A stretch of 40,000 nt of DNA from Candidatus Uabimicrobium amorphum. Its GTDB lineage: Bacteria > Planctomycetota > Uabimicrobiia > Uabimicrobiales > Uabimicrobiaceae. This document shows, in pieces, positions 20,239 to 36,595 of the stretch; the first letter of the stretch is position 1, and every line of letters starts with the position of its first letter. The stretch spans positions 7,769,547 through 7,809,546 of the forward strand of contig NZ_AP019860.1 of assembly GCF_009002475.1 (NCBI RefSeq), given 5' to 3'. The notes beneath the pieces are model-generated. The model saw only the letters and a program-made list of their open reading frames with translations. It was not told where the DNA came from and made no database searches. The translations under genes were made by a program, and so were the position numbers.

Positions 20239-20937
20239 CTATTTTCTAGTGACCAAGTAAGCCTTTGCTCGCTCATCCTTTTGAAGCCAATTGATAATTT
20301 TTGGTTCATTAAGTACCTTGTGTAAGGAAATACCACCTTTACGAATACTTGTTATAAACTTTTGTACTTCTTCGTCTAACTTTTCCCATTTTTCGCAAAT
20401 GTCACTAAGTTCGTTTTTTACTTCTTGCAATGTATTTACATCTTCAATATCAGCAGGTAATTTGTTTACCTGTTCGAGTAAAGTATCATATAATTGCTTT
20501 ACTTTTGGCTGATTTTCTTCTGGATCTTCCAGGACTTCTTCCACTAAAGTTTTTATATTTTTTGGTAAATCTATGTATGAACGCCAATTTTTTTGTAACG
20601 TTGTTTCTATTTCTCCTAGAGTATTTTTGAATTCTTGAGAGTTAAAGCCCTTGTGCTCCAGGATAACACTGGAGATGTTAGCATTTTCTAAAATCTTGCT
20701 AATTTGCTTACGTCTTTGTTTTAGTTTGCGTTTATTGATGTCTAATTCACAATAACTAGATAGAATAGAATAGTGATGTACAAGTTTATGCGCTTGAAGG
20801 TTTATTGCATCTATCTCTTTAAAACGTTTTTTTAATTTTTCTATCTCTTCGCTAACTTCTCTATGATTTTGATACAATTTAACTTTATTTTTAAAATCTT
20901 TAGCAATATCTACTATGTTTGGCCTTGTATCTGACAT
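20239..20937 (-). CDS. dpdI: Coiled-coil hypothetical protein in the DpdI position
   Basis: 232 aa, K/E-rich heptad-like sequence, GGAGGA SD. The symbol comes from gene order only. Confidence 0.35.
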   Translation of the reverse strand: MSDTRPNIVDIAKDFKNKVKLYQNHREVSEEIEKLKKRFKEIDAINLQAHKLVHHYSILSSYCELDINKRKLKQRRKQISKILENANISSVILEHKGFNSQEFKNTLGEIETTLQKNWRSYIDLPKNIKTLVEEVLEDPEENQPKVKQLYDTLLEQVNKLPADIEDVNTLQEVKNELSDICEKWEKLDEEVQKFITSIRKGGISLHKVLNEPKIINWLQKDERAKAYLVTRK

Positions 20938-20940
20938 AAT

Positions 20941-23928
20941 CTATTCCTCCAATTTTTCAAGGTCTTCATCTAGTTCTTGGAGCTTTTGGCTTATCTTTTT
21001 TTTCCATACAATAGGGTCTTCAATTCCCTCATCATCTAAATTTTGTTGTAAGTTTTTTATACCATCCTTTAATATTTGCTCAGAACTATTTAAAATATCT
21101 AAACTTTCTTTCATAATTGTATAGTCTAATGAAACAATTGCTTGTATGCGCTGTATGAGGGAATTACCTCTAATAACTTTGCGAGCTAATTGAATTTGTT
21201 TATCAACTTGTTCCAAAATTTTTAAACGTTTTGATATTTCAATAACTTTTGGATTACTAAAAATATCAGCTTCAATGCCCAGATTTAGAGCTTCACTCAA
21301 CTCTTCGCTAATAGATTTTATAGAAAGTGTTCCAGTATATTCTAATGTTTGATCTAGCCATTTTTGACATCTTTCTACTTCTTCTTCTATAGCTTTATCA
21401 AAATATTTTTCAACTTGTTTAGCGAATGTTATCAAATTACCGTATGTCCTTTTGTACCAGTCTTTAGATTGTTCTGGTAATTTGTAAGGTTGTATTCTTT
21501 GTAATGAAGCATCTAACTCTTGTAGGATAGGAGAAACATCTATCATTTTTGTTTCTTTAGATTTACCTTTACGACAGGTTAAAACATCAAAAATACATTC
21601 CTCAATTATCTTTTCTCCATACTGCTCATATGCTTTAAGAAGACCTTTCCAAGAAGCAGAGCGCAGATCGTCGAATACTATACTTTCTTTAGGCGTTTTT
21701 GAAATGTTTAATAGTAAATCTTGGGAGACAGGTTCTGATGGCCATTTTTGACGAAGTAGGACTCCAAGAGATAGTAATCGGGTCGTTATTTCGAGAGGTT
21801 TGTGTTTTCCAGATGTTTTTGCTAATTTGCGTATTTTGTGATGTACTTCACTTGTACATCTATCCACGAAATCAAAAATAAAGACTAAATTTTTATGATC
21901 TTTTCCGAAACCATTAACCAATCCTCTAATAGCCAGAGCATTTTTTGGGGAAGCATCTATTTCTAGTCTTATATCACCTCCTTTAGTTTTGGTATGCTGT
22001 CCATCAAAGTGGATGTTTGAGCGTTGAAAGAATTGATAAAAAAACCAGCCATAAGTGTCTGAATCCCAATCATATGATGAACATATAGCCTCATATACTG
22101 CTTTTCGCCAAATGTTAATATCTTTATCTTCAACAGATTTTTTATTTACCCAATTATCAAAAATATCAACTGAGGTATTTATATTTATACCAACATTTTC
22201 AGTTATTTTTGGCGTAGTATGAACATCTGGAGTTATTTCAATTTTAGAGAGCTTTGGAAAATCAAAGGCTTGTATTATGCCTGAAGGTAAAGATGGTTTT
22301 GTTGGGTTTTTGGAGTATATTTCTAAAGCAGTTCTTATTTTGTCAGCTGTTTTTTCTCCATATTTTTCATAAAGTTCTTGTTGTATGTTAACCCCCACAG
22401 AACTTAGTTTAAACCACTCTAGCATCCTCGGACTAGGAAAATTTTTATATTCTAAGTTACTTTCGCCATCTTCTAATACTCTATTAATTATACGGCTAAT
22501 GAGTTTACGAGGATTAAACGCTTGAGGCTCATTAGAGGGACTTTTTGTATAGTCAATATATAAACGAACGATGGATTCAGGGGTAAACGGATATAAACCC
22601 CTACCATTTACTTCTCCAAAAGTCTTATGGCATAACGAGATATTAGGACATTTTACTTGATCGCAAAAACTGGGATAATCTCCATAACTTTTTGTTGTTA
22701 GAAAATTCTCCATTTCTTCAATACTGTATCTTGAAGCATTTAAGTAACGTGAAGCAAAATCAACTAATTCATCTTGACCAAAAGAGCCATTTTTGTTTTT
22801 TTCACCGATTGTCAAATCAAAATTTACAGTAATATCTATTCTTCCTTTGATGTTTTCGCGAAGTCTAGCAAAATCGTCATTGGTTAACCCAATTATACTT
22901 CGTAGAATACATAAATCAGCTCCAGCGTCTTCTGTTGAAATGAGTAACGACTCTATTAACTCAGCGTCTACTCCTTGAGTTATCGAAAGGTCCTCAAGGA
23001 AAAGAAGTAATTGTTTGTTTTCGTTTTTTAACGCCCTACGAATTTCAGATAATGCTCTTAGCAAATTACCATGTCTAAGACCTAACAAATTTGCTAATGC
23101 TTTTGATGTCGCTTGATTTAGAATTTGCGCTGACAAAGAAGATAAATCAGAATCTGTGAGCAGTGTGGCTGCAAGTTCTCCAGCTTTTTCCCCAGCTTTT
23201 TCTGCTGTAGATGCATCTACTATTACATCTTCAACTTTCCATTTTAATTCTTCTTCATCATCAGGACGTTTTTCACGTTCAGTTGCCGAAATATGACGTG
23301 CTAGTCGAACAACAATACCGTTATCTTTATCTTCCATTAATTTTTGGCGTATACTATCTGAGCGAAGAAAAGCAGGCATAGATTCTAAGATAATTTCATG
23401 CTCTTCATCGTTTGGAAAAGAGAGGTTAGATGTAGTTATATTTTCGGGTTCAAGTACAAACGCTAATTCATCAAGAATTTTTGTCATAGCACCTCTAATA
23501 CTAATATTATTAGTCCATTGAATTTCTTTTCGAATACGATCGATTTCTTCCCCTTCAAAGTCTCGTAAAATACAGTACAGAACATCTGCCAGATTAGCAC
23601 AATCGCGGGGGATTAGAACAGAGTGATATATTGCTTCTCGGGTGCTATTATACATCCAGCGAATCAAATGGGATTTTCCTGTTCCTGAGTCGCCGACTGC
23701 AGCACAAAATCTATGCTCACAACGTTGATCCAAGAAATCTTTCAGAAGTTGTTGTTCATCATAACGCATCGAGCTGTTTGTTTCGTAATTCAGTATCCTT
23801 ATTGGACTAGGAAAATGCGTAGCCTGAAAGACGGCTTTGTTAACACGTAATGCGACTGTATTCATCACTTTGGGACGATCGTTTGTATTCCAACAGATTA
23901 CATTAGGAAATTTAGGTGGCACTTTCAT
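20941..23928 (-). CDS. dpdH: Large P-loop NTPase in the DpdH position
   Basis: Walker A AVGDSGTGKSHLIRW (nt ~23681-23710). Candidate Walker B LLLFLEDLS. 995 aa. The symbol comes from gene order and size only. Confidence 0.4.
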   Translation of the reverse strand: MKVPPKFPNVICWNTNDRPKVMNTVALRVNKAVFQATHFPSPIRILNYETNSSMRYDEQQLLKDFLDQRCEHRFCAAVGDSGTGKSHLIRWMYNSTREAIYHSVLIPRDCANLADVLYCILRDFEGEEIDRIRKEIQWTNNISIRGAMTKILDELAFVLEPENITTSNLSFPNDEEHEIILESMPAFLRSDSIRQKLMEDKDNGIVVRLARHISATEREKRPDDEEELKWKVEDVIVDASTAEKAGEKAGELAATLLTDSDLSSLSAQILNQATSKALANLLGLRHGNLLRALSEIRRALKNENKQLLLFLEDLSITQGVDAELIESLLISTEDAGADLCILRSIIGLTNDDFARLRENIKGRIDITVNFDLTIGEKNKNGSFGQDELVDFASRYLNASRYSIEEMENFLTTKSYGDYPSFCDQVKCPNISLCHKTFGEVNGRGLYPFTPESIVRLYIDYTKSPSNEPQAFNPRKLISRIINRVLEDGESNLEYKNFPSPRMLEWFKLSSVGVNIQQELYEKYGEKTADKIRTALEIYSKNPTKPSLPSGIIQAFDFPKLSKIEITPDVHTTPKITENVGININTSVDIFDNWVNKKSVEDKDINIWRKAVYEAICSSYDWDSDTYGWFFYQFFQRSNIHFDGQHTKTKGGDIRLEIDASPKNALAIRGLVNGFGKDHKNLVFIFDFVDRCTSEVHHKIRKLAKTSGKHKPLEITTRLLSLGVLLRQKWPSEPVSQDLLLNISKTPKESIVFDDLRSASWKGLLKAYEQYGEKIIEECIFDVLTCRKGKSKETKMIDVSPILQELDASLQRIQPYKLPEQSKDWYKRTYGNLITFAKQVEKYFDKAIEEEVERCQKWLDQTLEYTGTLSIKSISEELSEALNLGIEADIFSNPKVIEISKRLKILEQVDKQIQLARKVIRGNSLIQRIQAIVSLDYTIMKESLDILNSSEQILKDGIKNLQQNLDDEGIEDPIVWKKKISQKLQELDEDLEKLEE

Positions 23929-23930: not shown

Positions 23931-24773
23931 TTAGACCTTTCCAAGTTTCACAAAAGCTATTTTTTCTCCAAAACTAGTTCGCAAAAATTTTCTTTGGTCA
24001 TCGGGACACCAATACTCTATTTTTTTCTGCAGTTTCAAACGTTCTAAACCAAAAGAAGTTGCTTCGCAAAGCTTGTCATCTGGCCACTCATTTTCCATAT
24101 TATTCAATACCGTTTTTCGAACTTCCCCACCATCAAGGACGGGACATAATTTTCCCAAGCGTTTACGAAATTTATGAGCGGTTACTTCTTCATCTCTATT
24201 TACTAGTTTATCTATGTGTCTTGTAAAAAAAAGAGTTGGGTCTAGAAATACACCTTTTATTCCCTCATCTTTTATCTTTTTTATAAGTCCAAGATATTTC
24301 ATCCAGTAAATGATCATATCCCATCGTTGATCGTTACGAAGACCAAAATCGGAGATATCAAAGCCTTGTTTATTAAAAGTGTTTTTAAATTCGTCATAAC
24401 TTTGTGGTAGTTCTAAAACAGGTTGTGCCAGTATCCACGCGCAAATTTGAGCAAACAAATTAGTTGTTCCTCCAACCTCTGGAGATAAAGCTCTGGAAGC
24501 CATTGTAATTGGAAATGTTTTGTCGATATTATCTGTATCCTGACACAATTCATCAGATAATTTATATAGAATTCCATCTTTTTCTACCAAGCCGCATTCC
24601 TCGCAAGCTGATAAAGTCCGAGTAACTTGTATAGGGGTTTTATCTTGGGTTTGAGCAGTGGGATAGAGCAGTGCCACTATTTCGTTTTTTGGCAGAGGAC
24701 TCGATATTTTTAATAGCTTTATCACCGCTAGCATACGGCTAGGAACAGGTTCCGGTTGTTTGTATATTTTCAT
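23931..24773 (-). CDS. dpdG: Winged-helix-containing hypothetical protein in the DpdG position
   Basis: ATGA start/stop overlap with the upstream helicase gene (24770-24773), so I start at Met16 of the track ORF (MKIYKQPEP). The N-terminal segment NEIVALL...VTRTLSACEECGLVEKDGILYKLSDEL looks like a wHTH. The symbol comes from order only. Confidence 0.4.
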   Translation of the reverse strand: MKIYKQPEPVPSRMLAVIKLLKISSPLPKNEIVALLYPTAQTQDKTPIQVTRTLSACEECGLVEKDGILYKLSDELCQDTDNIDKTFPITMASRALSPEVGGTTNLFAQICAWILAQPVLELPQSYDEFKNTFNKQGFDISDFGLRNDQRWDMIIYWMKYLGLIKKIKDEGIKGVFLDPTLFFTRHIDKLVNRDEEVTAHKFRKRLGKLCPVLDGGEVRKTVLNNMENEWPDDKLCEATSFGLERLKLQKKIEYWCPDDQRKFLRTSFGEKIAFVKLGKV

Positions 24774-27271
24774 TCTAGATACTCTTCCTCCCAAGATTGA
24801 AGTTGAATAGACGGGCATGGTAGTACATCGTAAACATATCGATTAGGATGATCTGGTGCTTGTGTGTTTATCGGAATAATTAAAATGGTTGTAGTTGGTA
24901 AAGAGTCCTGTATTATTTCCCATGTTTTTGGCCACCATGTTGTTGGTGATTGATCAAGAACAAAAACTGTTGGTTGATTTTTTGTAATATCACAAGGGAC
25001 ATCTTGGTGTAGAAAAAATAATCGAGAGCGGTCGTTATAAGGAGTTTTCCACAAACGTTTTTCTAAATTCTCAAACGATACTATATTTTTTACCCCTTGA
25101 TCAATTAACCACAACACTAAATCTTGTATTGCGTTTAGAAGTTTATCACCTTTGATGGTTGAAGGATAATACACACATCCAAGCTTGTCTGTTTTCAATA
25201 GTTTTTGTAAGTCTTTCCCTACTGTTTTTTGAGAAAATGTTATTTTTGGGGTACGACGAGGTAGTATTTTCCCACAAAAAGGCCGTTGGGATTTTTCTCT
25301 ACAGTGAAAACAGCCTCCACAGGCTCGTACAATGGGAATTTGATATCGATTACTTTTATAACATTCTTCAAAAAGACTCGAAATGCAACAAGACATATCG
25401 AAATTCAACATTTTTGCTAAAAGCTCTTTTTGTTTCGCATAGTGTTGATTTAGATCATTTCTAAAAGGAACAATTCTCTCGTCCCATAATTTGAGCTGAG
25501 TATGACCAAGTGTTGATAATCGAACATTCGCAAAATTTCTAGTGTTTTCTTTTGTTGGATGTTCAATGTTTATTATTTCTGCCCGGTCCATTAGAAGTAA
25601 GGTTCGCAAATTCCAAAGTCTATTTTGTTCGCTTTTCATATCTAGTTCTGGAGCAGAGTTTAAAGAGACGCAATAAATGGATTCTGCTTTATCAACTACT
25701 TTTTTGCTATTGAACATAGCATTCCATCTCTTTCTTCCCTTTTCTCCGCCAATAAACGTTGGTGCTGAGAGAGAATCAACAATTTCCCAATCGTCAAGTG
25801 TCCAAATAAGTAAAGACAAACATGGATTACCGTTTCGACCACCACGACCTACATCTTGATAAAAACGATCTAATGATTCTGGCAACTCAGCATGAATAAC
25901 AACCCTAACATCTGCTTTGTCAACCCCTAAGCCAAAAGCAGATGTAGCAATTATGATATCAACATCATTTTCTTTCCATCTTTGTAGCTGCTTCTGGTAT
26001 TCTCGCGGTGTTATATCACCATGTATCATTGAAACTCGCTGGAATCCGTTATTTATAATTATGTTGTTCCACTCAATACAAGAACTTTTTAAAGTGGTAT
26101 ATAAGATTAGAGGACGTGGTAAATGGTGAATAGCTTCTAATATCCAATCTATTCGTTGTTTTTTTGTTGGTGCTTGAGCCTGCCAGTATATTGGTTCTGG
26201 CCTTAATCGCGTCGCATGTACAATGGTTAGGTTTTCATTTTCTGAAAACATTTTTTCTAACGACTCTAAATGATACTGTGTTAAAGTCGCAGACATCAAA
26301 ACTGTAACAAAGGGGGTCTTTGTTTGACTTAGTAACTTTCGTCTAGCTGAAGACATTTGTTGAAAAGATGGACGAAATTCATCTCCCCAGTTTAAAATCA
26401 TATGAGCCTCATCAACTACAACATGACGAATATGACCATTTTTGGCACTTTTAAGTAAAGTAGAAAATAGAGAACCTACAAAAACTTCTGGAGAAACAAT
26501 TAAAGGACCCTGTGTACCGCTTTCACATCTCATTCGAATTCCTAAAGCATTCTCTCTTTCTTCTGGGCGATAAGCGACCCTATGACCAACAATATTCTCA
26601 ATCTTAGCTGCCAAATCCAAAGCAAGAGAAATTGTTGGTACAACAATAGGGGTGACACCCATTAACTCGGATTCTACAGACGGATATAGTATTGCCGGGA
26701 TAAATGCACATACGCTTTTTCCACTACCTGTTGGAAGAATTAATACGAGCGTTTGGCCAGGTGGTGCGCAAAGTACAGAGCGCACGGCTTCTCTTTGGGC
26801 ATTAGACCGATACCTTTGAAAATTTAAAAATTTTAAAAACGGATCCCCTGCACATTCAGTTTTTGAATGACAATTTTCATCTATAAATAATCTACTTTCT
26901 AATGATTCTTTGTTTGCATGTGGTAACCATTGAGGATACCATTCAAAAGATCTTATACAAGTATTTGCAGAAGAGGTTTGTCTAACATCTAAAGACGCCA
27001 ATTTATACTCTTCTTGCAAAATAGAAGTACAAAGATTTTTGGGGATTTTTAAACTTGCTAATTTTGAATTATTAATTTTTTCGTATTGGATAACAGAGCG
27101 AAACAAAACCATTAAGTCTTTTCCTCTGTAATTATTATCATTCAAGGCTTTTAATAAACGCCAATGAGGTGTGTTTTGCCAGTCAGAGGAGGTATTTGCC
27201 AAGCCTTTTATCGGACATGACCATGAATTTTGAAGTTCTTGTAAATAATTTATCACTATATTTTTTTCCAA
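24770..27271 (-). CDS. dpdF: RecQ-like DEAH helicase, DpdF-like
   Basis: LPTGSGKSVCAF, VVVDEAHMILNWGDEFRPSF, LMSATLT, ATSAFGLGVDKADVRVVIHAELPESLDRFYQDVGRGGRNG, later CGGCFHC. The track start is TTG (27269-27271). GTG at 27254-27256, overlapping the upstream TAG, is an alternative. Confidence 0.65.
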   Translation of the reverse strand: MEKNIVINYLQELQNSWSCPIKGLANTSSDWQNTPHWRLLKALNDNNYRGKDLMVLFRSVIQYEKINNSKLASLKIPKNLCTSILQEEYKLASLDVRQTSSANTCIRSFEWYPQWLPHANKESLESRLFIDENCHSKTECAGDPFLKFLNFQRYRSNAQREAVRSVLCAPPGQTLVLILPTGSGKSVCAFIPAILYPSVESELMGVTPIVVPTISLALDLAAKIENIVGHRVAYRPEERENALGIRMRCESGTQGPLIVSPEVFVGSLFSTLLKSAKNGHIRHVVVDEAHMILNWGDEFRPSFQQMSSARRKLLSQTKTPFVTVLMSATLTQYHLESLEKMFSENENLTIVHATRLRPEPIYWQAQAPTKKQRIDWILEAIHHLPRPLILYTTLKSSCIEWNNIIINNGFQRVSMIHGDITPREYQKQLQRWKENDVDIIIATSAFGLGVDKADVRVVIHAELPESLDRFYQDVGRGGRNGNPCLSLLIWTLDDWEIVDSLSAPTFIGGEKGRKRWNAMFNSKKVVDKAESIYCVSLNSAPELDMKSEQNRLWNLRTLLLMDRAEIINIEHPTKENTRNFANVRLSTLGHTQLKLWDERIVPFRNDLNQHYAKQKELLAKMLNFDMSCCISSLFEECYKSNRYQIPIVRACGGCFHCREKSQRPFCGKILPRRTPKITFSQKTVGKDLQKLLKTDKLGCVYYPSTIKGDKLLNAIQDLVLWLIDQGVKNIVSFENLEKRLWKTPYNDRSRLFFLHQDVPCDITKNQPTVFVLDQSPTTWWPKTWEIIQDSLPTTTILIIPINTQAPDHPNRYVYDVLPCPSIQLQSWEEEYLE

Positions 27272-30200
27272 AAAAACTTTTCAGATAAAACATATACCCC
27301 GATTGCATCAACTGATATATTTGGATTTTTTAATACTTGAGATACTAAACTATGCAATGAATAAAGTTTACATATATCAGAGTCGATGGCTAAATTACTA
27401 TCTATACCACTTTGAGATCGTGCAATTAGACGTGCCTTGTTGATGGTAAAGTATTCTTCGGCTGAAAGCAAAGCTTTGCTACTAGTTGTTTTTAATTTAT
27501 CACTAGTGGAAGTTTTTTTAAGAGCTTTTTCCGTAATTTCCTGGCATAATAACTTCCATCTTTCTTCCCCAAACCAGTTTTTAAGATATGTAGCTTTTTC
27601 TTTTCCCATGTTTATATCAGGGGGAGCTTTGTAAGGTTTTTTACAAATTTCGATTAAATCCAATTTCGCAATTTCTCCCTCTACGTCTAAGAATAATTCA
27701 TAAAGATATTCGTTAAACCACCCCTTTATCATTCGTAATAATCCGCCGCGAGCAATATCATCCCAATCATGTTCATTTAAAAATTTAATTATTGGATCTA
27801 AGTTTGGATATACATTAAGGATTATTCTGAAAATAATACAAGGATCTATTCTTCCATAACACTTGCGCCATAATACAAAGCAACGCCCTCGATCATCTTT
27901 CTTTAGAAGTTCATGACATATATCGAGACCTCTATGTCCAGGTCGAAAAAATTGAAGCCCTGAATTTCTTATAGTTGCAACATTTCGAATAGAGGTTCCT
28001 TCTTGAAACAAACTTTGCATTTCATCTAGATAATTGAATGGGATTAGAGGTTCTTTACGTTTAGGCAATGTAAACTTAAATGTGTCACGATTTACTTTAA
28101 TAGGCCGCAAACCAACATTATCTTTTAAGTAACTAATTAATGCTTTTGATAAAGTTTTGTTTTTAACCTCTTCGTTATCCCCCATGTCTAAGTTTTTAAA
28201 CATTTCGTTTACCTTGCGTAACGTATACATTCCATCAACAACATCTTGCTCTACTATTCGCAGTCGTTCTTCCTCGATTTTAGATTTAAGCTCACCTATT
28301 GCAGAGACTAATGCACTGGGACCACCTTCAAAAGTACGCTGTTTTAAATAGGGCATCTGTTCGTCTATTAAAAACTGTATATCAGAAACAGAGTCGTTAA
28401 AAATTCCGTACCCCTCAACTAGTAGTCTACGCCAAGCATCATCGACAGCAAGTTCTTCATTGTCTAGAGTAACAATAACTTTACACGGTATGTTTTCTGT
28501 ACGACTGATACGGTCTAAACGTCCTAAACGTTGCTCTATACGCATCGGTGACCAAGGGATATCAAATAGAATTATACCAGTAGCAAAATGTAAATTTACT
28601 CCCTCTTCTAATGAGGAATCTACAATCAGAAAGCTATTTCGGTTGCTCTTTTTAAAGCCTTGAATGATTTTTTGACTGTACTCCGCCGACATTTGTTCAT
28701 GGAGTACATACAAATGATTTTTGAAAGTTTTTTTCAAACGTTCCTCAATTTTATTGCACAATTCTACAGTCGAACAAAACACTACATATTTTTGTAAAGT
28801 TTTCTTAGAATTAAGTTGTTTGAGAATTTCTTGTATTAGAAAGATTCTATCTTCAGGCCATTTTTTTTCAACGGCATCACACATTTTTTGTAGAATATAT
28901 GCCCCTTCTTGCTTTGGATTATCGACTAATAGTTTCTTGATTTTTTTAGACAGTAACATTGTATCGCTAGCTATAATCTCTGAGATTTCAAAATAAAGAT
29001 CTATGTTTTTTTGTAAATCGATTTGTTGACTAATGTTACTTGCTACTTCTATACGCCAATTTTCAAGATTTTCCCAAAGAAATTCAAGAAGTTCATCGTT
29101 AAGTTCAAACTCATAACTTAATGCTACTTTACGCGAACATAAACCGTGATCTTCTGTCATCCATGCTCGACGTGTTCTTAACATCCGACGATGAATACGA
29201 TAAGTTTCGCTTATGTGGATTTGTAAAGATTTTACTACTTTTATGATGTCATCTTTTTTAGCTTCGTATACTTGATTTACTAAACTAGAAATGGTCTTAT
29301 CTCTTGGCAAAATCACAGACAACTTCTTCGCATGCCTTTTAAGTAAAAGAGGGTTTTTTGCTTTAGATAAAGCTAGAAGTACACGTCCTATTTCCTGTCG
29401 TTTTGCAAGGCGTTCTCTAAATACCTCAATGTGTTCCAATTGATATGTTTCTGGAGTGAGTAAATGAAGTAGAGCTAAAAGTTGCGATTCGCAGTGCAAA
29501 ACTGGAGTAGCAGAAAGTAATAAAATATGCCTTGTTTTCTTAGCTAGTTTACAAAATGCTTCATACAGAGGCGCTTTCTCCGAACTAGACTTTTTAGCGG
29601 TAACTATTCGGTGCGCTTCATCTACTACAACTAAATCTAACTGGCTGTTAGAGTTAGTTAATAAATCATTGTGTTCAACAACTGATATATTTGTAATAGA
29701 AAAACGTCTTTTTAATTCCTCTTTCCATTGCCAAACCAATGCTGTGGGAACATAAATCTTTATCATCGTTTGTGGAGAATCCAGAAGCACTTGTTTTAAA
29801 ATTATCCCTGTTTCGATTGTTTTTCCTAAACCGACTTCATCAGCAAGTAGATAGCGTATATTAGGATCTCGTAAGATACGAGATGCTATTTCTATCTGAT
29901 GAGAAAATAATTCCACTTTGCTGGATGTGAAGCTAGTAATTCCTTCACACAGTTGACGATGGTATATCAGTTGTTCTAAAAGTTTATATCTTTGATGGAA
30001 AAAAAAAGGTGTTCCTTGAACAAGTTCTTCTAACATTTTTTCTGGACTAGATGGCCAGCAAGATCGGACTTGAAAATCATCTTCGCGAAATTCGATTGGG
30101 GCTTTTTGATTATCAAATGTGATCTGGTAACTTCTAAAGTTTTTATCTTCATTACTACATAATAAAATGCGTCCGTATGACACATTTTCATTTGTTTGAA

Positions 30201-30405
30201 AGCAGCATGTTTGGCGGGGGATCATCTGGTAAATTAGCTGTGATTTGTGAATTTGTATAGATTCAAAATGAGTTGGACTAATAAAGAAATGTACCTCTAC
30301 TATTCCATCCACACCTGGGTAACAATAAATATTTCCAAAACCAAGTTTTTCTTGCCCTTTAATTAGAACTTTTTTTCCTGGGATGGGTTCCACACTAAAC
30401 TCCAA
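27256..30405 (-). CDS. dpdE: SNF2-family helicase/translocase, DpdE-like
   Basis: LLADEVGLGKTIETG, LVVVDEAHRI, LLLSATPV, EGVNLHFATGIILFDIPWSPMRIEQRLGRLDRI. The track start is TTG. GTG at 30391-30393, six nt after GGAG, is a plausible alternative start. Confidence 0.65.
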   Translation of the reverse strand: MEFSVEPIPGKKVLIKGQEKLGFGNIYCYPGVDGIVEVHFFISPTHFESIQIHKSQLIYQMIPRQTCCFQTNENVSYGRILLCSNEDKNFRSYQITFDNQKAPIEFREDDFQVRSCWPSSPEKMLEELVQGTPFFFHQRYKLLEQLIYHRQLCEGITSFTSSKVELFSHQIEIASRILRDPNIRYLLADEVGLGKTIETGIILKQVLLDSPQTMIKIYVPTALVWQWKEELKRRFSITNISVVEHNDLLTNSNSQLDLVVVDEAHRIVTAKKSSSEKAPLYEAFCKLAKKTRHILLLSATPVLHCESQLLALLHLLTPETYQLEHIEVFRERLAKRQEIGRVLLALSKAKNPLLLKRHAKKLSVILPRDKTISSLVNQVYEAKKDDIIKVVKSLQIHISETYRIHRRMLRTRRAWMTEDHGLCSRKVALSYEFELNDELLEFLWENLENWRIEVASNISQQIDLQKNIDLYFEISEIIASDTMLLSKKIKKLLVDNPKQEGAYILQKMCDAVEKKWPEDRIFLIQEILKQLNSKKTLQKYVVFCSTVELCNKIEERLKKTFKNHLYVLHEQMSAEYSQKIIQGFKKSNRNSFLIVDSSLEEGVNLHFATGIILFDIPWSPMRIEQRLGRLDRISRTENIPCKVIVTLDNEELAVDDAWRRLLVEGYGIFNDSVSDIQFLIDEQMPYLKQRTFEGGPSALVSAIGELKSKIEEERLRIVEQDVVDGMYTLRKVNEMFKNLDMGDNEEVKNKTLSKALISYLKDNVGLRPIKVNRDTFKFTLPKRKEPLIPFNYLDEMQSLFQEGTSIRNVATIRNSGLQFFRPGHRGLDICHELLKKDDRGRCFVLWRKCYGRIDPCIIFRIILNVYPNLDPIIKFLNEHDWDDIARGGLLRMIKGWFNEYLYELFLDVEGEIAKLDLIEICKKPYKAPPDINMGKEKATYLKNWFGEERWKLLCQEITEKALKKTSTSDKLKTTSSKALLSAEEYFTINKARLIARSQSGIDSNLAIDSDICKLYSLHSLVSQVLKNPNISVDAIGVYVLSEKFFWKKI

Positions 30406-30407: not shown

Positions 30408-32621
30408 TTATTGCGTTGCTTGCTTAAATTCCTGGAAAAATACATGGGTATTGTGGAATCCTCTACGACGGTTGCGGTTATTTCCACGGAAAATGGCAAC
30501 TTCTATACCATTTTTTTCGCATATCGAATTATTTGTCGTTTTCCATGGGCAGTCCCTTAATAGTTCCTCATATAAACGCTCGTGCTTTTCTCTGTTGTCT
30601 CCGACAAATTGATCATACTCCAGAACATACTTTAATGTCTCTTCGAGAGATAGTGATCCTTGGTCAAAATTCCTCAATGCTTTCAGTGCTGCTTTTTCTA
30701 ATTTAACAAATTCTTGTAAACACCCACGTTCTTGTTCTAACATCTTTTTTATTCTAGGATTACCGATCTTTGCTTGAGGTACTCTAATCGCACTATATCT
30801 TTTATCGTAAGTAGACCAAAAGTTGTCACGTGCACTTAACCAAGCGCGCCTTAACTGCGATGCGCTATCACAACTGTAAACTCCAAGGTTGATAAAATTT
30901 GAAATAGCGTCCAGGCGTCCTATCCCAAATAAATGTATTCGAGTTTCTGGCTTTCTTATTTTATCAATAGAGGTTAATATTTCAATAATTGTTTCTGTTT
31001 GACTACGGACTAAACTACCCAGAGCAATATAACTATAGCCTAGTTGTTGATATTCCTCGAACATCTTAGTGTAGGAATCAGCATCCCATCCTTGACAAGC
31101 AGCAATAGGTTTAAAGTTGTATTTTTTTTGTTTGTATAAATTTATAAACTCTTTGCCATGGTCAAGTGTAATTTGCCACCTTCTCTTTGCTTCTGAAAAA
31201 TCAAACTCTGTTTTTTGATAAGTACAAAGTCGATTATCGAACAAATCAGAAGATTTTGGAGGAGATTTTACTACACGATACTTTTTATCTTTTGAAATAG
31301 ATTCGAATTTATCTTTTGAGATAGGTTCATAATTACCATTTTTATTCTCAACCCAATATGTTTTTCTTTGGCATACGCTTGGAACAATCAAATGATCAAT
31401 GGTAACTCCATAATTAAAATCTAATCTTTCATAATAATCAATAATTTCCTCTGTTGTATAAGGTGGATTATACTCATTTAGGTAACCAAAAGCGCCACAA
31501 TCTCCCATCACTGGAACTTCTTTTGGACATCGAAGATATGCATGAATACCTAAAGATTCAACCAGTTGTTTCTTTTTTTTACTTTCTTCAATAGTCACTT
31601 TTGAAACTAATATGCCATCGTAATTGTATTGTTTCATCAATTCATGTGAATAATAGTCATCACGATAAGAATCATGTTGCAGGCCAAAAAGTTCTGAGTA
31701 GTGAAAATCATTAATGAAATCATAACGTGGATCTACACGATCATCCCATTCTGGTATAAAATAGAGCATTTTTGCGTCTTTTCTTGGAGTGTAAGCAATT
31801 TCTACTCGTTTTGGTGGTTTGTAATCCGTAGGTAACCCTAAACGTAACTCAAATGGGCATTTTTCAGACAATTTATATCCTTTTGGCAAGTTACCCAAGT
31901 CTTTATCCTTCTTATGTTGAGAATTGTTTGCTTTTCTCATCGTATTTAAAATAGTGACTATTTCTTTGGGTTGTTTTTTCAATGTATTTAAAATGTTTGT
32001 TTTTTGACATACATGCTGGGCAAATCTTTTAAAGATTTCTCCTTTTAAGCCAACCAAACCACAATGAAAATCTTTAGCCTCTTGAATACTTGTTGGATAA
32101 ATTGTTCCATTGGAGCCGTTAAGCTGTTTTTCTTGTGAACAGAAAAAAATTAATGGTATAGAAAACTGTTCATTTTTTTCAATTTGTAAAGACCTTAAAT
32201 ATTTTTTCCCCAGTAATACAATACCTAAATCGTATTTTCCTAACACAGAACGAAAATCTTTTGGTATTTTTAGTAATTTTGACCACTCATCAATTTCTTT
32301 GGCTTTCATAGTATCGAAAGTACATTCATAGGGTACAATTTCTTTATTACTTCCTATAAAACCATAGCCAGCTGAAACAATCCATAGATCTACATTAGCT
32401 TGTTTTTCCCTTAATTTTTTTATCCCCTTCATTAATCGTATGTGCTGCTCTCCTGTATACATATTCTCAGCAGTACATTTATAATTATCTAGCTTTTCAG
32501 TTTTTGATTTTAGCAGTTCTGGTTGTTTAAAATCTTCTTGCACGAGCTGGTTATCGGGTTTCGATGCTTTTTTTCCTGTGCACGAAGTAATCACTAGTAA
32601 TTTGGGTAAGTCTTTTTGCAT
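30408..32621 (-). CDS. Second DpdA-like transglycosylase paralogue with an N-terminal YaaA(DUF328)/DUF6884-like domain
   Basis: aa ~285-737 are collinear with the other DpdA: PVMGDCGAFGY, GVTIDH, IHLFGIG, SCDSAS, RYSAIRVPQ, GIEVAIFRGNNRNRRRGFHN. aa 1-250 carry LLVITSCTGKK and IVSAGYGFIGSNKEIVPYE. It sits directly upstream of dpdE. Confidence 0.7.
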   Translation of the reverse strand: MQKDLPKLLVITSCTGKKASKPDNQLVQEDFKQPELLKSKTEKLDNYKCTAENMYTGEQHIRLMKGIKKLREKQANVDLWIVSAGYGFIGSNKEIVPYECTFDTMKAKEIDEWSKLLKIPKDFRSVLGKYDLGIVLLGKKYLRSLQIEKNEQFSIPLIFFCSQEKQLNGSNGTIYPTSIQEAKDFHCGLVGLKGEIFKRFAQHVCQKTNILNTLKKQPKEIVTILNTMRKANNSQHKKDKDLGNLPKGYKLSEKCPFELRLGLPTDYKPPKRVEIAYTPRKDAKMLYFIPEWDDRVDPRYDFINDFHYSELFGLQHDSYRDDYYSHELMKQYNYDGILVSKVTIEESKKKKQLVESLGIHAYLRCPKEVPVMGDCGAFGYLNEYNPPYTTEEIIDYYERLDFNYGVTIDHLIVPSVCQRKTYWVENKNGNYEPISKDKFESISKDKKYRVVKSPPKSSDLFDNRLCTYQKTEFDFSEAKRRWQITLDHGKEFINLYKQKKYNFKPIAACQGWDADSYTKMFEEYQQLGYSYIALGSLVRSQTETIIEILTSIDKIRKPETRIHLFGIGRLDAISNFINLGVYSCDSASQLRRAWLSARDNFWSTYDKRYSAIRVPQAKIGNPRIKKMLEQERGCLQEFVKLEKAALKALRNFDQGSLSLEETLKYVLEYDQFVGDNREKHERLYEELLRDCPWKTTNNSICEKNGIEVAIFRGNNRNRRRGFHNTHVFFQEFKQATQ

Positions 32622-32643
32622 ATCAATCGCTTTCGTGAGTAAC

Positions 32644-33351
32644 TTATTTTATCGATATCTTAAAAGGGTTATAGTTTACTTTAGAGTCGTATTGGTCAAC
32701 GCCTTCTTTTCTTTTTAGAAAGTTTACTGCCATGTATGTAAAAGGCGTTACGATAATTTCATATAAACACTTAAATATCCAGGCCGAAATCATAGCACTT
32801 ATTAAGATGTTTTTAGGCAGAATACCAATGTATGCAATGCTTATGAAACAGATTGTATCAACACCTTCTCCAAACAATGTCGAGATTACAGTTCTGAGCC
32901 ATAAGTGTCTACCATCACTCCATACTTTCATTTTTGACATAATAGTACTATTAACTATTTCTCCTAACCAATAACCAACCAAAGATCCAAGCACTATCCG
33001 AGGTATAAATCCATGGATTATGGCAAATTGATCTTGGTAAGACCAATTATGAGCTGGCGGTAAAATAACTGCTATAGTAAGAAATGAAACCATAAACACA
33101 TTAGACAGCAAACCTAACCAAATTAATCTTCTAGTTCGTTTATAACCATATACTTCAGTGAGTACATCTCCAATAACATAGGAGATCGGAAAAATTAAAA
33201 TGCCAGCGCTAAAAATAGCACTTCCAAGACTAAATAATTTTACAGCAGCAATATTTGAAACTAAGAGGGTAACTATAAAAGCTATACCAACTATGTCCAA
33301 ATGCTTTGGATGCCATTCGTCTTCGGAAGTTATTTTTTTTACCTCGTTCAT
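32644..33351 (-). CDS. yhhQ: YhhQ/DUF165 (VUT family) 7-deazaguanine (queuosine precursor) transporter
   Basis: Polytopic membrane protein with VSNIAAVKLF, IFPISYVIGDVLTEVYGYKRTRRLIWLG, RIVLGSLVGYWLGEIVNS, STLFGEGVDTICFISIAY. AGGAG SD. Confidence 0.85.
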   Translation of the reverse strand: MNEVKKITSEDEWHPKHLDIVGIAFIVTLLVSNIAAVKLFSLGSAIFSAGILIFPISYVIGDVLTEVYGYKRTRRLIWLGLLSNVFMVSFLTIAVILPPAHNWSYQDQFAIIHGFIPRIVLGSLVGYWLGEIVNSTIMSKMKVWSDGRHLWLRTVISTLFGEGVDTICFISIAYIGILPKNILISAMISAWIFKCLYEIIVTPFTYMAVNFLKRKEGVDQYDSKVNYNPFKISIK

Positions 33352-33360
33352 TGTTCTCCT

Positions 33361-34371
33361 TTAGTAGGCAGTCGTTGGGGTAATATGATGAGGAAAATCT
33401 ACACTTTGTGCTCCAAACCATTCATGAGCGTCAAGGTTGGCAATGCTCCAGTAGCGACTATCATCAGCCTTTAATCCGCTGTTTAGCTTTTCTAAAATTA
33501 AACTATTGGCAACTGTTGTTGCAGCTCTGATTTCTATTTCCATTTGTTGATGTGGAAGTATTATTTGTTGCTTTTCAATAATTTTTTTGAGGTCATCTTG
33601 ATAATTTAAAACACCTACACTATTGAGGTATTGTGGAACTCTATAGTCTTCTACAGCTATAATTTCATTAAAGTTTGATAGCGGCTTTAATTGACTATTA
33701 GTTTTAGATGACCGCCCTTGATATAGAAGAATTGCTAATTTTGCTTTCTTAAAAAATGGGAACTGTAAAGTTTTTTGTGTTGTATATATATGTGAAATAT
33801 CCTGAAAAGACATAGGGAAATATTGAATTAGCTTATCTAATAGTAACAGAGCATCCCAGTTAGAATCTTCATATAAGTTGATTGGGTCGCCATTAAATTT
33901 TTCATCTAAAACAGTTATTAACTCCTGGATTATCCAATGTCTATACTCTAGCATGGGAATCTGGACTACCCCCGTAAAGAATTCTTTAGTCGCATCTTGG
34001 CTACAAAATACTTTTTTTAAATTTTTGCTTGTGATATTTTTCTCACCAAATGTACGGAAAAAACAGCGAAACATGGCCATTGCACCTTTGTAGCTCGTTT
34101 CACTCTCTTTTATAGTAAAAGCTTGCTCTGGTTTTTGAAGATCCATATAACAAAAATTAATAGCTGATGTTATAATTGCAAATCTTGCAAATGCAAAATC
34201 ATCTTTAGGATGAATATTTTCAAAATCCCAATATACTTGTTTTTTGGGTAACGTTTTTAGTGTGTCAACATACTTATCAATACATGTTGGATTGACGTCT
34301 ACGAATTTTACAATTTCTTTTTTCTTCAACCATTTCCAGTTTTCGATAATTTTTTCAGCGTAAATTTCCAT
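33361..34371 (-). CDS. qng1: Queuosine salvage protein (DUF2419/Qng1 family, queuosine-5'-phosphate N-glycosylase)
   Basis: AINFCY, FPFFKKAKLAILLYQ, IIAVEDYRVPQYLNSVGVLNYQDDLKKII...MEIEIRAATTVANSLILEKL and C-terminal FPHHITPTTAY. These are collinear with human QNG1/C9orf64 as I recall it: [22 protein letters not shown]...EVEIRGCS...IPFHRIRCIYY. The track start is TTG at 34380. I prefer ATG at 34371. Confidence 0.8.
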   Translation of the reverse strand: MEIYAEKIIENWKWLKKKEIVKFVDVNPTCIDKYVDTLKTLPKKQVYWDFENIHPKDDFAFARFAIITSAINFCYMDLQKPEQAFTIKESETSYKGAMAMFRCFFRTFGEKNITSKNLKKVFCSQDATKEFFTGVVQIPMLEYRHWIIQELITVLDEKFNGDPINLYEDSNWDALLLLDKLIQYFPMSFQDISHIYTTQKTLQFPFFKKAKLAILLYQGRSSKTNSQLKPLSNFNEIIAVEDYRVPQYLNSVGVLNYQDDLKKIIEKQQIILPHQQMEIEIRAATTVANSLILEKLNSGLKADDSRYWSIANLDAHEWFGAQSVDFPHHITPTTAY

Positions 34372-34547
34372 TTTTACCAACCAGTTTTAAAATTAAAAAA
34401 TAAACATTCTATTCTATCCCGAATGTAACTAAAAAGCAAATTGCACTGTTAGTCAGTTTAAAATTTTCAACAGTAGTGGAACCAAATATAGCGTTTTGTC
34501 AAGACAAAGTAGTTGTTAATCTATAGCTTTTGTGCAACAGTAGTAAT

Positions 34548-36592: not shown

Positions 36593-36595
36593 AAT

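What the first reader, a model, noticed from the sequence alone, without database searches (positions are those of the whole stretch)
32644..34380. Queuosine/queuine salvage pair (Qng1 + YhhQ) co-operonic with DNA transglycosylase and restriction genes
Seen: a DUF2419/Qng1 homologue and a YhhQ transporter are the first two genes of the minus-strand unit. Gaps are 9 nt (Qng1 to YhhQ) and 22 nt (YhhQ to the DpdA paralogue).

Established:
- Qng1 releases the queuine base from queuosine-5'-phosphate.
- YhhQ imports preQ0/preQ1, and in some pathogens it imports queuine (bacterial queuine-salvage work by Yuan et al. 2019).

Inference: the adjacent DpdA paralogue may be fed by salvaged 7-deazaguanine bases rather than by de novo preQ0. 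That raises the possibility of queuine or another salvaged derivative being installed in DNA. It would also make immunity depend on an externally acquired micronutrient.
Basis: partly seen in the sequence, partly recalled or inferred. Interest (0 to 1): 0.75.

Follow-up and report, generated by a model that had tools for sequence, protein, structure and literature searches.

The report
Deazaguanine salvage genes heading a Dpd operon
A mobile anti-phage island in the prey-engulfing bacterium Candidatus Uabimicrobium amorphum marks its own DNA with 7-deazaguanine bases, and its restriction operon starts with a base importer (an association already known) and a Qng1-type base-releasing enzyme (an association I could not find reported), which probably supply the marking base.

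Summary
A Q_salvage/DUF2419 (Qng1-family) gene lies at 33361-34371 and a YhhQ/QPTR gene at 32644-33351. They are the first two genes of a tightly packed 10-gene minus-strand operon, with gaps of 9 and 22 nt.

One correction: the "DpdA paralogue" is a DpdC-DpdA fusion. It is followed by DpdE, F, G, H, an ORF in the DpdI position, a DpdJ-like and a DpdK-like gene. DpdB, a DpdA-DpdB fusion and FolE2 lie alongside. The host is Ca. Uabimicrobium amorphum, and the island is mobile.

YhhQ inside dpd islands is already published (about 9% of islands). The Qng1-like gene is the new element. I found it next to DpdC-DpdA in only one other island. That island lacks yhhQ and dpdE-K but carries QueC and QueE, so the Qng1-like enzyme is not simply a substitute for de novo synthesis.

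The enzyme keeps every catalytic, 7-deazaguanine-binding and C-terminal-tail residue of Qng1. It lacks three of the five queuine side-chain pocket residues and one phosphate-contacting arginine.

Best reading: a precursor supply and recycling module that delivers preQ0-type bases for dPreQ0/dADG marking. Queuine in DNA is unlikely. Whether the genome makes preQ0 de novo could not be determined.

The parts
33361..34371 (-). Qng1-family (DUF2419/Q_salvage) N-glycosidase, 336 aa. It is the first gene of the operon.
   Evidence: Pfam PF10343 E 7.8e-33. PDB Qng1 hits E ~1e-16. AF2 model pLDDT 93.6 with TM ~0.8 to 7uk3/7u1o/7ugk. 100% identical to the NCBI 'queuosine salvage family protein' of Ca. 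Uabimicrobium amorphum. Catalytic residues are conserved; the queuine pocket is only partly conserved.
32644..33351 (-). YhhQ/QPTR (COG1738) 7-deazaguanine precursor importer, 235 aa
   Evidence: Pfam Vut_1 E 2.4e-50. TIGR00697 scores 113 bits, above its cut-off of 51. The E. coli-type equivalog NF008406 scores 51 bits, below its cut-off of 252. Several hydrophobic segments; 9-nt SD-like spacer after the Qng1-like gene.
30408..32621 (-). DpdC(DUF6884)-DpdA fusion, 737 aa: DNA-guanine transglycosylase fused to the preQ0-to-ADG hydratase domain
   Evidence: NF041059 DpdA 420 bits (cut-off 200). DUF6884 38 bits (cut-off 30). PADLOC DpdA E 3e-114 and DpdC E 1e-14. 7ui4 E 3e-73. Equivalents of D95, F99, D130 and D256 and the DpdC motifs CTGKK and VSAGYG are present.
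27256..30405 (-). DpdE (SNF2-type helicase)
   Evidence: NF041062 715 bits, above cut-off 500
24770..27271 (-). DpdF (RecQ-like DEAD/DEAH helicase)
   Evidence: NF041063 788 bits, above cut-off 550
23931..24818 (-). DpdG
   Evidence: NF041064 110 bits, above cut-off 80
20941..23928 (-). DpdH (AAA ATPase)
   Evidence: NF041065 478 bits, above cut-off 450
20239..20937 (-). ORF in the DpdI position (coiled-coil protein, no DpdI model hit)
   Evidence: Assigned by position only. No significant family match.
14719..20229 (-). DpdJ-like giant helicase, 1836 aa
   Evidence: Best hit is NF041067 DpdJ, but 92 bits is far below the cut-off of 800 and covers the N-terminus only. PADLOC DpdJ E 2.5e-30.
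14134..14703 (-). DpdK-like PLD-family protein
   Evidence: NF041068 42 bits, below cut-off 100. PADLOC DpdK E 1e-11.
11817..14111 (+). DpdA-DpdB fusion, 764 aa (second transglycosylase plus DGQHR ATPase)
   Evidence: NF041059 478 bits and NF041060 400 bits, both above cut-off. Catalytic Asp residues present.
10704..11816 (+). DpdB (stand-alone)
   Evidence: NF041060 430 bits, above cut-off 300
9705..10478 (-). FolE2 (GTP cyclohydrolase IB), the only preQ0-pathway gene in the island
   Evidence: PF02649 E 8e-100; NF010200 300 bits, above cut-off 215. Syntenic with FolE2-QueC-QueE in L001.
34372..34529 (.). Intergenic region upstream of the operon (putative promoter). No riboswitch was detected.
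   Evidence: Sequence read. No Rfam hit at gathering threshold in the window, and no credible hit at E <= 5 in 32500-35100.

Best explanation
The window carries a Dpd-type 7-deazaguanine DNA modification-restriction system on a mobile island of Ca. Uabimicrobium amorphum. The first two genes of its restriction operon form a precursor supply module.

Proposed mechanism:
- YhhQ/QPTR imports a free 7-deazaguanine base, most likely preQ0 (possibly also preQ1).
- The Qng1-family enzyme cleaves the otherwise very stable N-glycosidic bond of 7-deazaguanine nucleosides or 5'-mononucleotides. These arise from turnover of the cell's own modified DNA and tRNA, and from digested prey or phage nucleic acid. 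Cleavage releases a base that can be used again.
- The base is inserted into DNA by the DpdC-DpdA fusion and by DpdA-DpdB/DpdB. The DpdC domain converts it to dADG.
- The resulting mark protects self DNA from DpdE-K.
- Co-transcribing supply, modification and restriction genes ties precursor availability to restriction activity.

Shown: family memberships, intact catalytic residues, operon structure, absence of queC/D/E within about 60 kb, and a conserved Qng1-like/DpdC-DpdA pairing in one related island.

Inferred: the substrates, the direction of flux, and the identity of the DNA mark.
For: - Families and operon packing.
- The Qng1-like protein keeps the equivalents of N72, K199, D231, Y232, I203 (as L), D298, W302, K233 (as R), Q306, E267 and H316, plus the C-terminal Tyr whose carboxylate binds the ribose (residue roles from PMC9881137).
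- Its model has the Qng1-specific elements beta1, beta6 and alpha12 that block the DNA cleft. It matches only Qng1 structures; the next hit is a MutY homologue at E 0.3.
- DpdC-DpdA and DpdA-DpdB both retain the equivalents of D95, D130 and D256 (PMC10164549).
- No queC/D/E in the window or in the flanks out to 10 kb.
- In island L001 the same Qng1-like gene (65% identity) sits directly upstream of DpdC-DpdA (74% identity). The genes upstream of it and the restriction module both differ, so the pairing survived rearrangement and travels with the modification cassette.
- yhhQ is present where QueC/QueE are absent, and absent where they are present.
- yhhQ inside dpd islands is documented: 213 of 2335 windows (PMC5699537; PMC5372724).
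- A bacterial qng1 neighbour gene was shown to transport preQ0/preQ1 rather than Q (PMC11130926).
- Background knowledge, not tested here: 7-deazapurine glycosidic bonds resist ordinary N7-dependent cleavage, so a dedicated hydrolase is needed for recycling.
Against: - Only two islands show the pairing and they are homologous, so this is in effect one evolutionary event.
- The two closest other DpdC-DpdA loci (54% and 57% identity) have neither a Qng1-like gene nor yhhQ. The module is accessory, not core.
- The nearest non-Dpd relatives of the enzyme (40-52% identity) have the same pocket residues. They sit in housekeeping or tRNA-modification neighbourhoods. The ancestral and perhaps current role could therefore be tRNA queuosine salvage.
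- FolE2 is retained, and the genome may make preQ0 de novo elsewhere (undetermined).
- No activity of any Qng1 on preQ0, ADG or deoxy substrates has been reported.
- The equivalent of the phosphate-contacting R80 is lost (A84), so even the nucleotide-versus-nucleoside preference is uncertain.
Confidence: 0.55

Rival explanations
1. Passenger tRNA-queuosine salvage genes. The Qng1-like enzyme releases queuine (or preQ1) from Q nucleotides and YhhQ imports Q precursors, all for tRNA modification by the host TGT. The pair merely rides on the mobile island and has no functional link to Dpd.
For: - The only demonstrated Qng1 function is Q-5'MP hydrolysis (PMC9881137).
- The closest non-Dpd relatives lie next to tRNA-modification or housekeeping genes (miaA-like and mnmA in L003; RelA/SpoT in L014; RNR in L012) and share the same pocket residues.
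- A prey-engulfing host would have plentiful Q nucleotides (organism identified).
Against: - The pair is tightly packed into the Dpd operon, with 9-nt and 22-nt gaps and no terminator.
- The Qng1-like/DpdC-DpdA adjacency is kept in L001 even though the flanking genes and the restriction module were replaced.
- No tgt, queA, queG/H or queL lies nearby.
- The queuine pocket residues Y93, W94 and W299 are not conserved.
- No Qng1 homologue was found in 50,697 phage records or 72,556 plasmid records, so it is not a common mobile passenger.
Confidence: 0.2
2. The DpdA paralogue installs queuine, or another salvaged derivative other than preQ0, into DNA, supplied by Qng1 and YhhQ. This would create a new DNA mark that depends on an external micronutrient.
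For: - A Qng1-family enzyme and a YhhQ are co-operonic with a second, divergent DpdA that is about 32% identical to the DpdA-DpdB copy.
- Some YhhQ proteins transport queuine (PMC11130926).
- No queC/D/E lies within about 60 kb.
Against: - This DpdA is fused to DpdC, whose known substrate is the nitrile of DNA-borne preQ0 (PMC10164549). The DpdC motifs are intact.
- The same fusion architecture is common (965 hits) and occurs beside QueC, QueD and QueE in phage-like contigs.
- Three of the five queuine side-chain pocket residues are missing from the Qng1-like enzyme.
- The sister island carries QueC and QueE.
Confidence: 0.08
3. Defence glycosylase. The Qng1-like protein, which has an HhH glycosylase fold and a 7-deazaguanine pocket, excises foreign 7-deazaguanine bases from phage DNA, as Dag1 and Dag2 do. 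This would close the gap left by phages that mimic the Dpd mark.
For: - Qng1 shares the HhH fold and the catalytic Asp/Lys with DNA glycosylases (PMC9881137).
- HhH glycosylases that defend against dPreQ0- and 7-deazaguanine-modified phages have recently been described (bioRxiv 10.1101/2025.10.29.685425).
- The gene sits at the head of a restriction operon.
Against: - All Qng1-specific elements that fill the DNA-binding cleft are retained: beta1, beta6, alpha12, and the C-terminal tail ending in an invariant Tyr.
- Structural matches to DNA glycosylases are insignificant (E 0.3, TM 0.28).
- The gene is present in L001, which lacks DpdE-K.
- The host's own DNA would be a substrate.
- No PADLOC defence model matches it.
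Confidence: 0.07
4. Nucleotide-pool sanitation. The enzyme destroys dPreQ0/dADG (or ribo) mononucleotides released by DNA turnover or restriction. This stops them being re-phosphorylated and mis-incorporated, and base recycling is only a by-product.
For: The structural evidence is the same as for the best explanation. The enzyme is present in L001, which has de novo genes and so does not need salvage for supply.
Against: The tight coupling to the importer YhhQ in this window (9-nt gap) fits supply better than detoxification. No evidence exists that 7-deazaguanine dNMPs are toxic or re-used.
Confidence: 0.1

Closest known systems
Dpd system of Salmonella enterica serovar Montevideo (dpdA-K; dPreQ0/dADG modification-restriction)
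   Same: DpdA, DpdB, DpdC, DpdE, DpdF, DpdG and DpdH homologues score above the curated cut-offs. The catalytic Asp residues of DpdA are conserved. The restriction genes form one operon, and the system sits on a genomic island.
   Different: - DpdC is fused to a second DpdA, and this fusion sits at the head of the restriction operon where dpdD would be. dpdD is absent.
- There are two DpdA and two DpdB copies, one pair fused as DpdA-DpdB.
- The DpdI, DpdJ and DpdK positions are divergent.
- Of the preQ0 genes only FolE2 is linked.
- A Qng1-like gene and yhhQ are built into the operon.
dpd islands with embedded yhhQ (Hutinet et al. 2017, PMC5699537; GATOR-GC survey, PMC11888242)
   Same: A COG1738/YhhQ transporter lies inside a dpd island. 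This has been interpreted as salvage of preQ0 for DNA modification. About 9% of surveyed islands have it.
   Different: Here yhhQ is preceded by a Qng1-family hydrolase. PF10343 does not appear in the held (truncated) part of that survey's domain table, nor in the literature I searched.
Qng1/QNG1 (DUF2419), the queuosine-5'-monophosphate N-glycosylase of Sphaerobacter thermophilus, human and S. pombe (PMC9881137)
   Same: Full-length fold (TM ~0.8). Catalytic Asp, Lys and Asn. 7-deazaguanine clamp (Asp, Trp, aliphatic residue). Ribose-stacking aromatics. C-terminal Tyr-carboxylate tail.
   Different: - About 23% identity.
- Y93 to A, W94 to M and W299 to A in the pocket for the cyclopentenediol and aminomethyl group.
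- R80 (phosphate contact) to A.
- The genomic context is DNA modification and restriction, not tRNA salvage.
Dag1/Dag2 defence-associated HhH DNA glycosylases (bioRxiv 10.1101/2025.10.29.685425)
   Same: HhH-superfamily enzymes with 7-deazaguanine-binding pockets, encoded in defence contexts.
   Different: Dag proteins act on duplex phage DNA. The protein here keeps the Qng1 elements that occlude the DNA cleft and has no significant structural match to DNA glycosylases.
Phage DpdA/preQ0 modules (Hutinet et al. 2019, PMC6884629; Cui et al. 2023, PMC10516641)
   Same: DpdC-DpdA-type fusions occur beside QueC, QueD and QueE in phage-like contigs L016 and L017. The insertion chemistry is the same.
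   Different: Those rely on de novo genes. No Qng1 homologue was found in the phage or viral collections.

Membership tests
Qng1 / DUF2419 (PF10343) | Sequence match to the family model above the curated threshold | tested here: met
   114.7 bits against a cut-off of 25, E 7.8e-33. PDB Qng1 chains at E 8e-17 to 2e-15.
Qng1 / DUF2419 (PF10343) | Two-lobe HhH fold with the Qng1-specific elements that occlude the DNA cleft (beta1, beta6, alpha12, C-terminal tail) | tested here: met
   AF2 pLDDT 93.6. Strands at 24-26 and 255-257, helix at 259-266. TM 0.77-0.84 to 7uk3, 7u1o and 7ugk; DNA glycosylases at E >= 0.3.
Qng1 / DUF2419 (PF10343) | Catalytic residues D231 and K199 and the general-acid network residue N72 (StQng1 numbering) | tested here: met
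   D242, K208 and N72 in the 336-aa protein. K is invariant and D nearly invariant in 154 relatives.
Qng1 / DUF2419 (PF10343) | 7-deazaguanine and ribose recognition: D298, W302, I203, F75, Y232; C-terminal Tyr with H316 and E267 | tested here: met
   D314, W318, L212, Y75, Y243, terminal Y336, H329 and E278.
Qng1 / DUF2419 (PF10343) | 5'-phosphate pocket: R80, K233, Q306 | tested here: inconclusive
   K233 to R244 and Q306 to Q322 are kept. R80 becomes A84 (T in P0002), whereas 114 of the 152 other aligned relatives (all except P0001 and P0002) have K or R at this position. The alignment has an indel nearby.
Qng1 / DUF2419 (PF10343) | Queuine side-chain specificity pocket: P46, W48, H53, Y93, W94, W299 | tested here: not met
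   W48 and H53 are kept. Y93 to A97, W94 to M98, W299 to A315, P46 to V. Most of the 154 nearest relatives also lack Y93 (S in 89, A in 47, Y in 5).
Qng1 / DUF2419 (PF10343) | Hydrolysis of queuosine-5'-monophosphate to queuine | not testable with these tools
   Needs an enzyme assay.
YhhQ / QPTR (COG1738, PF02592) | Family model above the curated threshold; polytopic membrane protein | tested here: met
   Vut_1 171 bits against cut-off 27. TIGR00697 113 bits against cut-off 51. Multiple hydrophobic 19-mers.
YhhQ / QPTR (COG1738, PF02592) | E. coli-type preQ0/preQ1 transporter equivalog (NF008406) | tested here: not met
   50.9 bits against a cut-off of 252. Substrate (preQ0, preQ1 or queuine) cannot be read from the sequence.
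Dpd modification-restriction system | DpdA DNA-guanine transglycosylase with catalytic D95, D130 and D256 | tested here: met
   Two copies, both above the NF041059 cut-off. All three Asp and F99 are present. H181 to Q and L236 to F in both copies.
Dpd modification-restriction system | DpdB (DGQHR ATPase) and DpdC (DUF6884) modification partners | tested here: met
   DpdB twice (430 and 400 bits, cut-off 300). DpdC as the N-terminal domain of the fusion (Pfam 38 bits against cut-off 30; PADLOC E 1e-14; motifs CTGKK and VSAGYG).
Dpd modification-restriction system | Restriction genes dpdD-dpdK | tested here: inconclusive
   DpdE, F, G and H are above cut-off. DpdJ and DpdK are best hits but below cut-off. 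Nothing matches the DpdD or DpdI models.
Dpd modification-restriction system | Linked preQ0 synthesis genes (folE, queD, queE, queC) | tested here: not met
   Only FolE2 is present. tblastn with QueC, QueD and QueE found nothing in the window or in the 10-kb flanks.
Dpd modification-restriction system | dPreQ0/dADG present in genomic DNA; restriction of unmodified DNA | not testable with these tools
   Needs LC-MS/MS and transformation or phage assays.
Defence-associated HhH DNA glycosylases (Dag) | Open DNA-binding cleft and structural kinship with DNA glycosylases acting on duplex DNA | tested here: not met
   The best DNA-glycosylase match is a MutY homologue at E 0.31, TM 0.28. The cleft-blocking Qng1 elements are conserved.

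The most novel reading that the evidence does not exclude
The Dpd-linked Qng1-like enzyme is a new specificity class of the DUF2419 family. It would be a hydrolase for 7-deazaguanine 2'-deoxynucleosides or nucleotides (dPreQ0/dADG), or for preQ0 ribonucleotides, and would close a DNA-to-base-to-DNA recycling loop. This would let a prey-engulfing bacterium arm its own restriction-modification immunity with modified bases harvested from digested prey or phage nucleic acid. A variant of this reading is that the two DpdA enzymes write two different 7-deazaguanine marks, one of them from a salvaged base that is not preQ0.
Probability: 0.2. Interest if true: 0.75.

Novelty: new variant of a known kind. 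Interest (0 to 1): 0.5.

Why it matters
Dpd systems are the most complex restriction-modification systems described, and how they secure their costly 7-deazaguanine precursor is only partly understood.

A Qng1-family hydrolase built into a Dpd operon would be the first link between DUF2419 enzymes and DNA modification rather than tRNA modification. It would suggest that 7-deazaguanine bases are recycled from nucleotides. It would also predict a substrate range for bacterial Qng1 homologues beyond queuosine, which could explain the published puzzle of a qng1 neighbour that transports preQ0/preQ1.

Placing supply, marking and restriction genes in one transcript is a simple safeguard against self-restriction when precursor is scarce.

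The host, the phagocytosis-like planctomycete Ca. Uabimicrobium amorphum, makes nutrient-dependent immunity an attractive but untested idea.

Tried and rejected
- **Whole-genome check for queC/queD/queE/tgt.** Not possible with these tools. The genome-contig scan did not return the U. amorphum genome and found only one Sungbacteria MAG. A QueC homologue search listed the best 120 of 6552 hits and none was from U. amorphum, so it is inconclusive.
- **More Qng1-like/Dpd islands.**
  - An exhaustive HMMER search found 1110 family representatives, but only P0002 is both close and Dpd-linked.
  - Relatives P0003-P0005, P0014 and P0015 sit in unrelated contexts.
  - The metagenome scan with DpdC-DpdA gave 4 loci, none with a Qng1-like gene.
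  - Viral scans gave nothing for the Qng1-like protein and one distant DpdC-DpdA locus that I did not examine further.
  - The phage and plasmid collections had no Qng1 homologue.
  - The closest QueC relatives of L001 led to an ordinary phage module and a housekeeping locus.
- **Riboswitch.** I looked for a preQ1 riboswitch upstream of the operon and found none.
- **Promoter scan.** Not informative: 17 sites found against 20 expected.
- **Divergent upstream ORFs.** The ones in the window and in L001 are not homologous.
- **Gene-by-gene GC and GC3.** No sign that yhhQ is a recent insertion.
- **GATOR-GC Pfam table.** It confirms Vut_1 in 9.1% of dpd windows. PF10343 is absent from the stored part, but the file is truncated.
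- **Thiaville 2016 (PNAS).** Not held.


Full report
**What is in the sequence.**

The reported coordinates hold two genes on the minus strand.
- ORF 33361-34380 matches Pfam Q_salvage/DUF2419 at E 7.8e-33. Its likely start is the ATG at 34371, which gives 336 aa.
- ORF 32644-33351 matches Vut_1 at E 2.4e-50 and the NCBIfam 'queuosine precursor transporter' model above its cut-off.
- The gaps are exactly 9 nt (TAA-AGGAGAACA-ATG) and 22 nt.

The pair opens a 20-kb, 10-gene operon whose junctions range from a 49-nt overlap to a 22-nt gap. No terminator-like site occurs in 30300-35100. Upstream lie a 158-nt intergenic region and a divergent ORF.

**Context.**

The third gene (30408-32621) is more than a DpdA paralogue.
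- Its N-terminus is a DUF6884 domain, which is the DpdC family (PMC11888242). PADLOC scores it as DpdC at E 1e-14, and the motifs CTGKK and VSAGYG are present.
- Its C-terminus is a DpdA domain (NF041059, 420 bits; PDB 7ui4, E 3e-73) with the equivalents of D95, F99, D130 and D256 intact.

The rest of the system is as follows.
- DpdE, F, G and H follow, all above the curated cut-offs.
- Next come an ORF in the DpdI position, a DpdJ-like giant helicase and a DpdK-like PLD protein.
- On the plus strand lie DpdB and a DpdA-DpdB fusion.
- FolE2 lies beside them.
- DpdD is missing.

The Qng1-like protein is 100% identical to a protein annotated in Candidatus Uabimicrobium amorphum. This organism is the planctomycete known for phagocytosis-like engulfment of prey.

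The island is mobile. It is bounded by a relaxase and a T4CP-like gene on one side, and by Bro-N and integrase genes about 10 kb beyond the other window end.

**Is de novo preQ0 synthesis linked?**

FolE2 is the only preQ0-pathway gene present. tblastn with QueC, QueD and QueE sequences found nothing in the window or in the 10-kb flanks. Whether these genes exist elsewhere in the 9.5-Mb genome could not be determined.

**Related loci.**

An exhaustive HMMER search found 1110 representatives of the family, but the query's own clade is tiny.

The closest relative (P0002, 65% identity) lies on a 31.8-kb metagenomic contig, L001. There it sits directly upstream of a DpdC-DpdA fusion that is 74% identical to the window's. 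That contig also carries DpdA-DpdB (76%), DpdB (82%) and FolE2 (77%).

L001 differs from the window in four ways.
- It has no yhhQ.
- It has no dpdE-K. Two unknown ORFs take their place.
- QueC and a radical-SAM QueE follow FolE2.
- The genes upstream of the Qng1-like gene are unrelated.

The Qng1-like gene therefore travels with the modification cassette, not with the restriction module. It also coexists with de novo genes. The presence of yhhQ alternates with that of QueC/QueE, but that rests on only two islands.

The next relatives (40-52% identity) sit in housekeeping or tRNA-modification neighbourhoods of CPR-like genomes.

DpdC-DpdA fusions are themselves common, with 965 hits at E <= 1e-30.
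- The two closest other fusions have no Qng1-like gene or yhhQ nearby.
- Phage-like contigs place the fusion beside QueC, QueD and QueE.

No Qng1 homologue exists in the phage, plasmid or viral collections searched.

**The enzyme.**

I compared the protein with the Sphaerobacter thermophilus Qng1 structures. Residue roles come from PMC9881137.

Conserved features:
- catalytic Asp and Lys, and the general-acid Asn;
- the 7-deazaguanine clamp (Asp, Trp and an aliphatic residue);
- the ribose-stacking aromatics;
- K233 (as Arg) and Q306;
- E267 and H316;
- the strictly C-terminal Tyr.

The AlphaFold model is confident (pLDDT 93.6) and contains the Qng1-specific beta1, beta6 and alpha12 elements that fill the DNA cleft. 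It matches only Qng1 structures (TM ~0.8). The best DNA glycosylase match has E 0.3. This is a mononucleotide or nucleoside N-glycosidase, not a DNA glycosylase.

The side-chain pocket differs from the characterised enzymes.
- Y93, W94 and W299 become A, M and A.
- Y93 makes the cation-pi contact to the aminomethyl group of Q.
- Most of the 154 nearest relatives also lack Y93. The query therefore belongs to a large uncharacterised subfamily rather than to the characterised Q-5'MP enzymes.

The two Dpd-linked proteins alone also lack the basic residue equivalent to the phosphate-binding R80 (A or T, against K or R in 114 of the 152 other aligned relatives).

These points argue against strict queuosine specificity, but they do not identify the substrate.

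**Mechanism proposed.**

DpdA exchanges guanine for preQ0 in DNA, and DpdC then hydrates the nitrile to give dADG (PMC10164549). A DpdC domain fused to this DpdA makes preQ0 the expected inserted base.

YhhQ would import free preQ0 or preQ1. The Qng1-like enzyme would release the base from 7-deazaguanine nucleosides or nucleotides that come from three sources:
- turnover of the cell's own modified DNA;
- tRNA turnover;
- digested prey or phage nucleic acid.

Such glycosidic bonds lack N7, so they need a dedicated hydrolase. This is background knowledge supported by the mechanistic discussion in PMC9881137.

One transcript for supply, marking and restriction would protect against self-restriction. 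All substrate assignments are inferences.

**Rivals.**
- **Passenger tRNA-Q salvage genes.** This is favoured by the contexts of the non-Dpd relatives. It is disfavoured by the operon packing and by the adjacency that survived rearrangement.
It is disfavoured by the DpdC fusion, the degraded pocket, and QueC/QueE in the sister island.
- **A Dag-like defence DNA glycosylase.** The precedent is bioRxiv 10.1101/2025.10.29.685425. It is disfavoured by the occluded cleft and by the gene's presence in an island without DpdE-K.
- **Nucleotide-pool sanitation.**

**Comparison with what is known.**

YhhQ embedded in dpd islands, and the idea that salvaged preQ0 feeds DNA modification, are already published (PMC5699537; PMC5372724; about 9% of islands).

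I found no report of a DUF2419/Qng1 gene in a dpd island. A published oddity fits the proposal: a qng1-adjacent transporter carries preQ0/preQ1 rather than Q (PMC11130926).

**Verdict.**

The finding is a real Dpd system in an unusual arrangement, and it is a new variant of a known kind. It is moderately interesting, mainly for the unreported Qng1-Dpd link and its host. The evidential base is narrow: two homologous islands and no biochemistry.

Noticed in passing
window 756-8446 (-), continuing into L009 11065-11991: Next to FolE2 lies an unexplained co-directional cluster. It comprises a GT2 glycosyltransferase fused to GTP cyclohydrolase II (932 aa), an NDP-sugar-dehydrogenase-like domain fused to a NADAR N-glycosidase domain, DUF4145, an AsnB-like glutamine amidotransferase, an arylamine-N-acetyltransferase-like protein, a DUF4915-like protein and a polysaccharide deacetylase. 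The NADAR domain hits PADLOC candidate PDC-M42C at E 1e-12, and the NCBIfam NADAR anti-phage model below its cut-off. This may be a second GTP-derived pathway or a defence module.
   Followed up: partly
window 30408-32621 and 11817-14111: The island carries two DpdA copies (a DpdC-DpdA fusion and a DpdA-DpdB fusion, about 32% identical) and two DpdB copies. Both DpdAs have Gln at the position of Salmonella H181 and Phe at L236. Whether they mark different motifs or insert different bases is open.
   Followed up: partly
window 14134-20937: The distal restriction genes are divergent. The 1836-aa DpdJ-like protein matches the DpdJ model only at its N-terminus (92 bits against a cut-off of 800). 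The ORF in the DpdI position has no family hit. DpdK is below its cut-off. No DpdD is present.
   Followed up: partly
L001 13320-15946: In the sister island the whole DpdE-K block is replaced by two or three unknown ORFs. One has a weak Endonuclease_7-like hit (E 0.005). This may be an alternative, much smaller effector for the same modification cassette.
   Followed up: partly
P0001/P0002 position 84 and 322 (window 33361-34371): Only the two Dpd-linked Qng1-like proteins lack the basic residue at the position of the phosphate-binding R80 (A or T, against K or R in most relatives). They also have Gln where most relatives have Arg or Lys at position 322. This leaves one basic residue in the phosphate pocket instead of two.
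   Followed up: yes
L016 43-2900; L017 278-3515: Phage-like metagenomic contigs (PD-(D/E)XK nuclease, AAA_24, DUF669) carry QueE-QueD or QueC-QueE directly upstream of DpdC-DpdA fusions. The fusion is therefore also a phage DNA-modification enzyme.
   Followed up: partly
L009 15389-20690; L010 3545-6163; window 35015-39049: The surroundings look like an integrative conjugative or defence island. They include a relaxase (Replic_Relax), a T4CP-like ATPase, a CHAT protease, a bacterial HORMA-like gene, a Bro-N protein and a phage-type integrase.
   Followed up: no
L003 2912-6903: A 48%-identical Qng1-like gene sits beside a miaA-like isopentenyltransferase, an NAD-binding oxidoreductase and mnmA. 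This is a tRNA-modification neighbourhood and hints at the ancestral role of the clade.
   Followed up: partly
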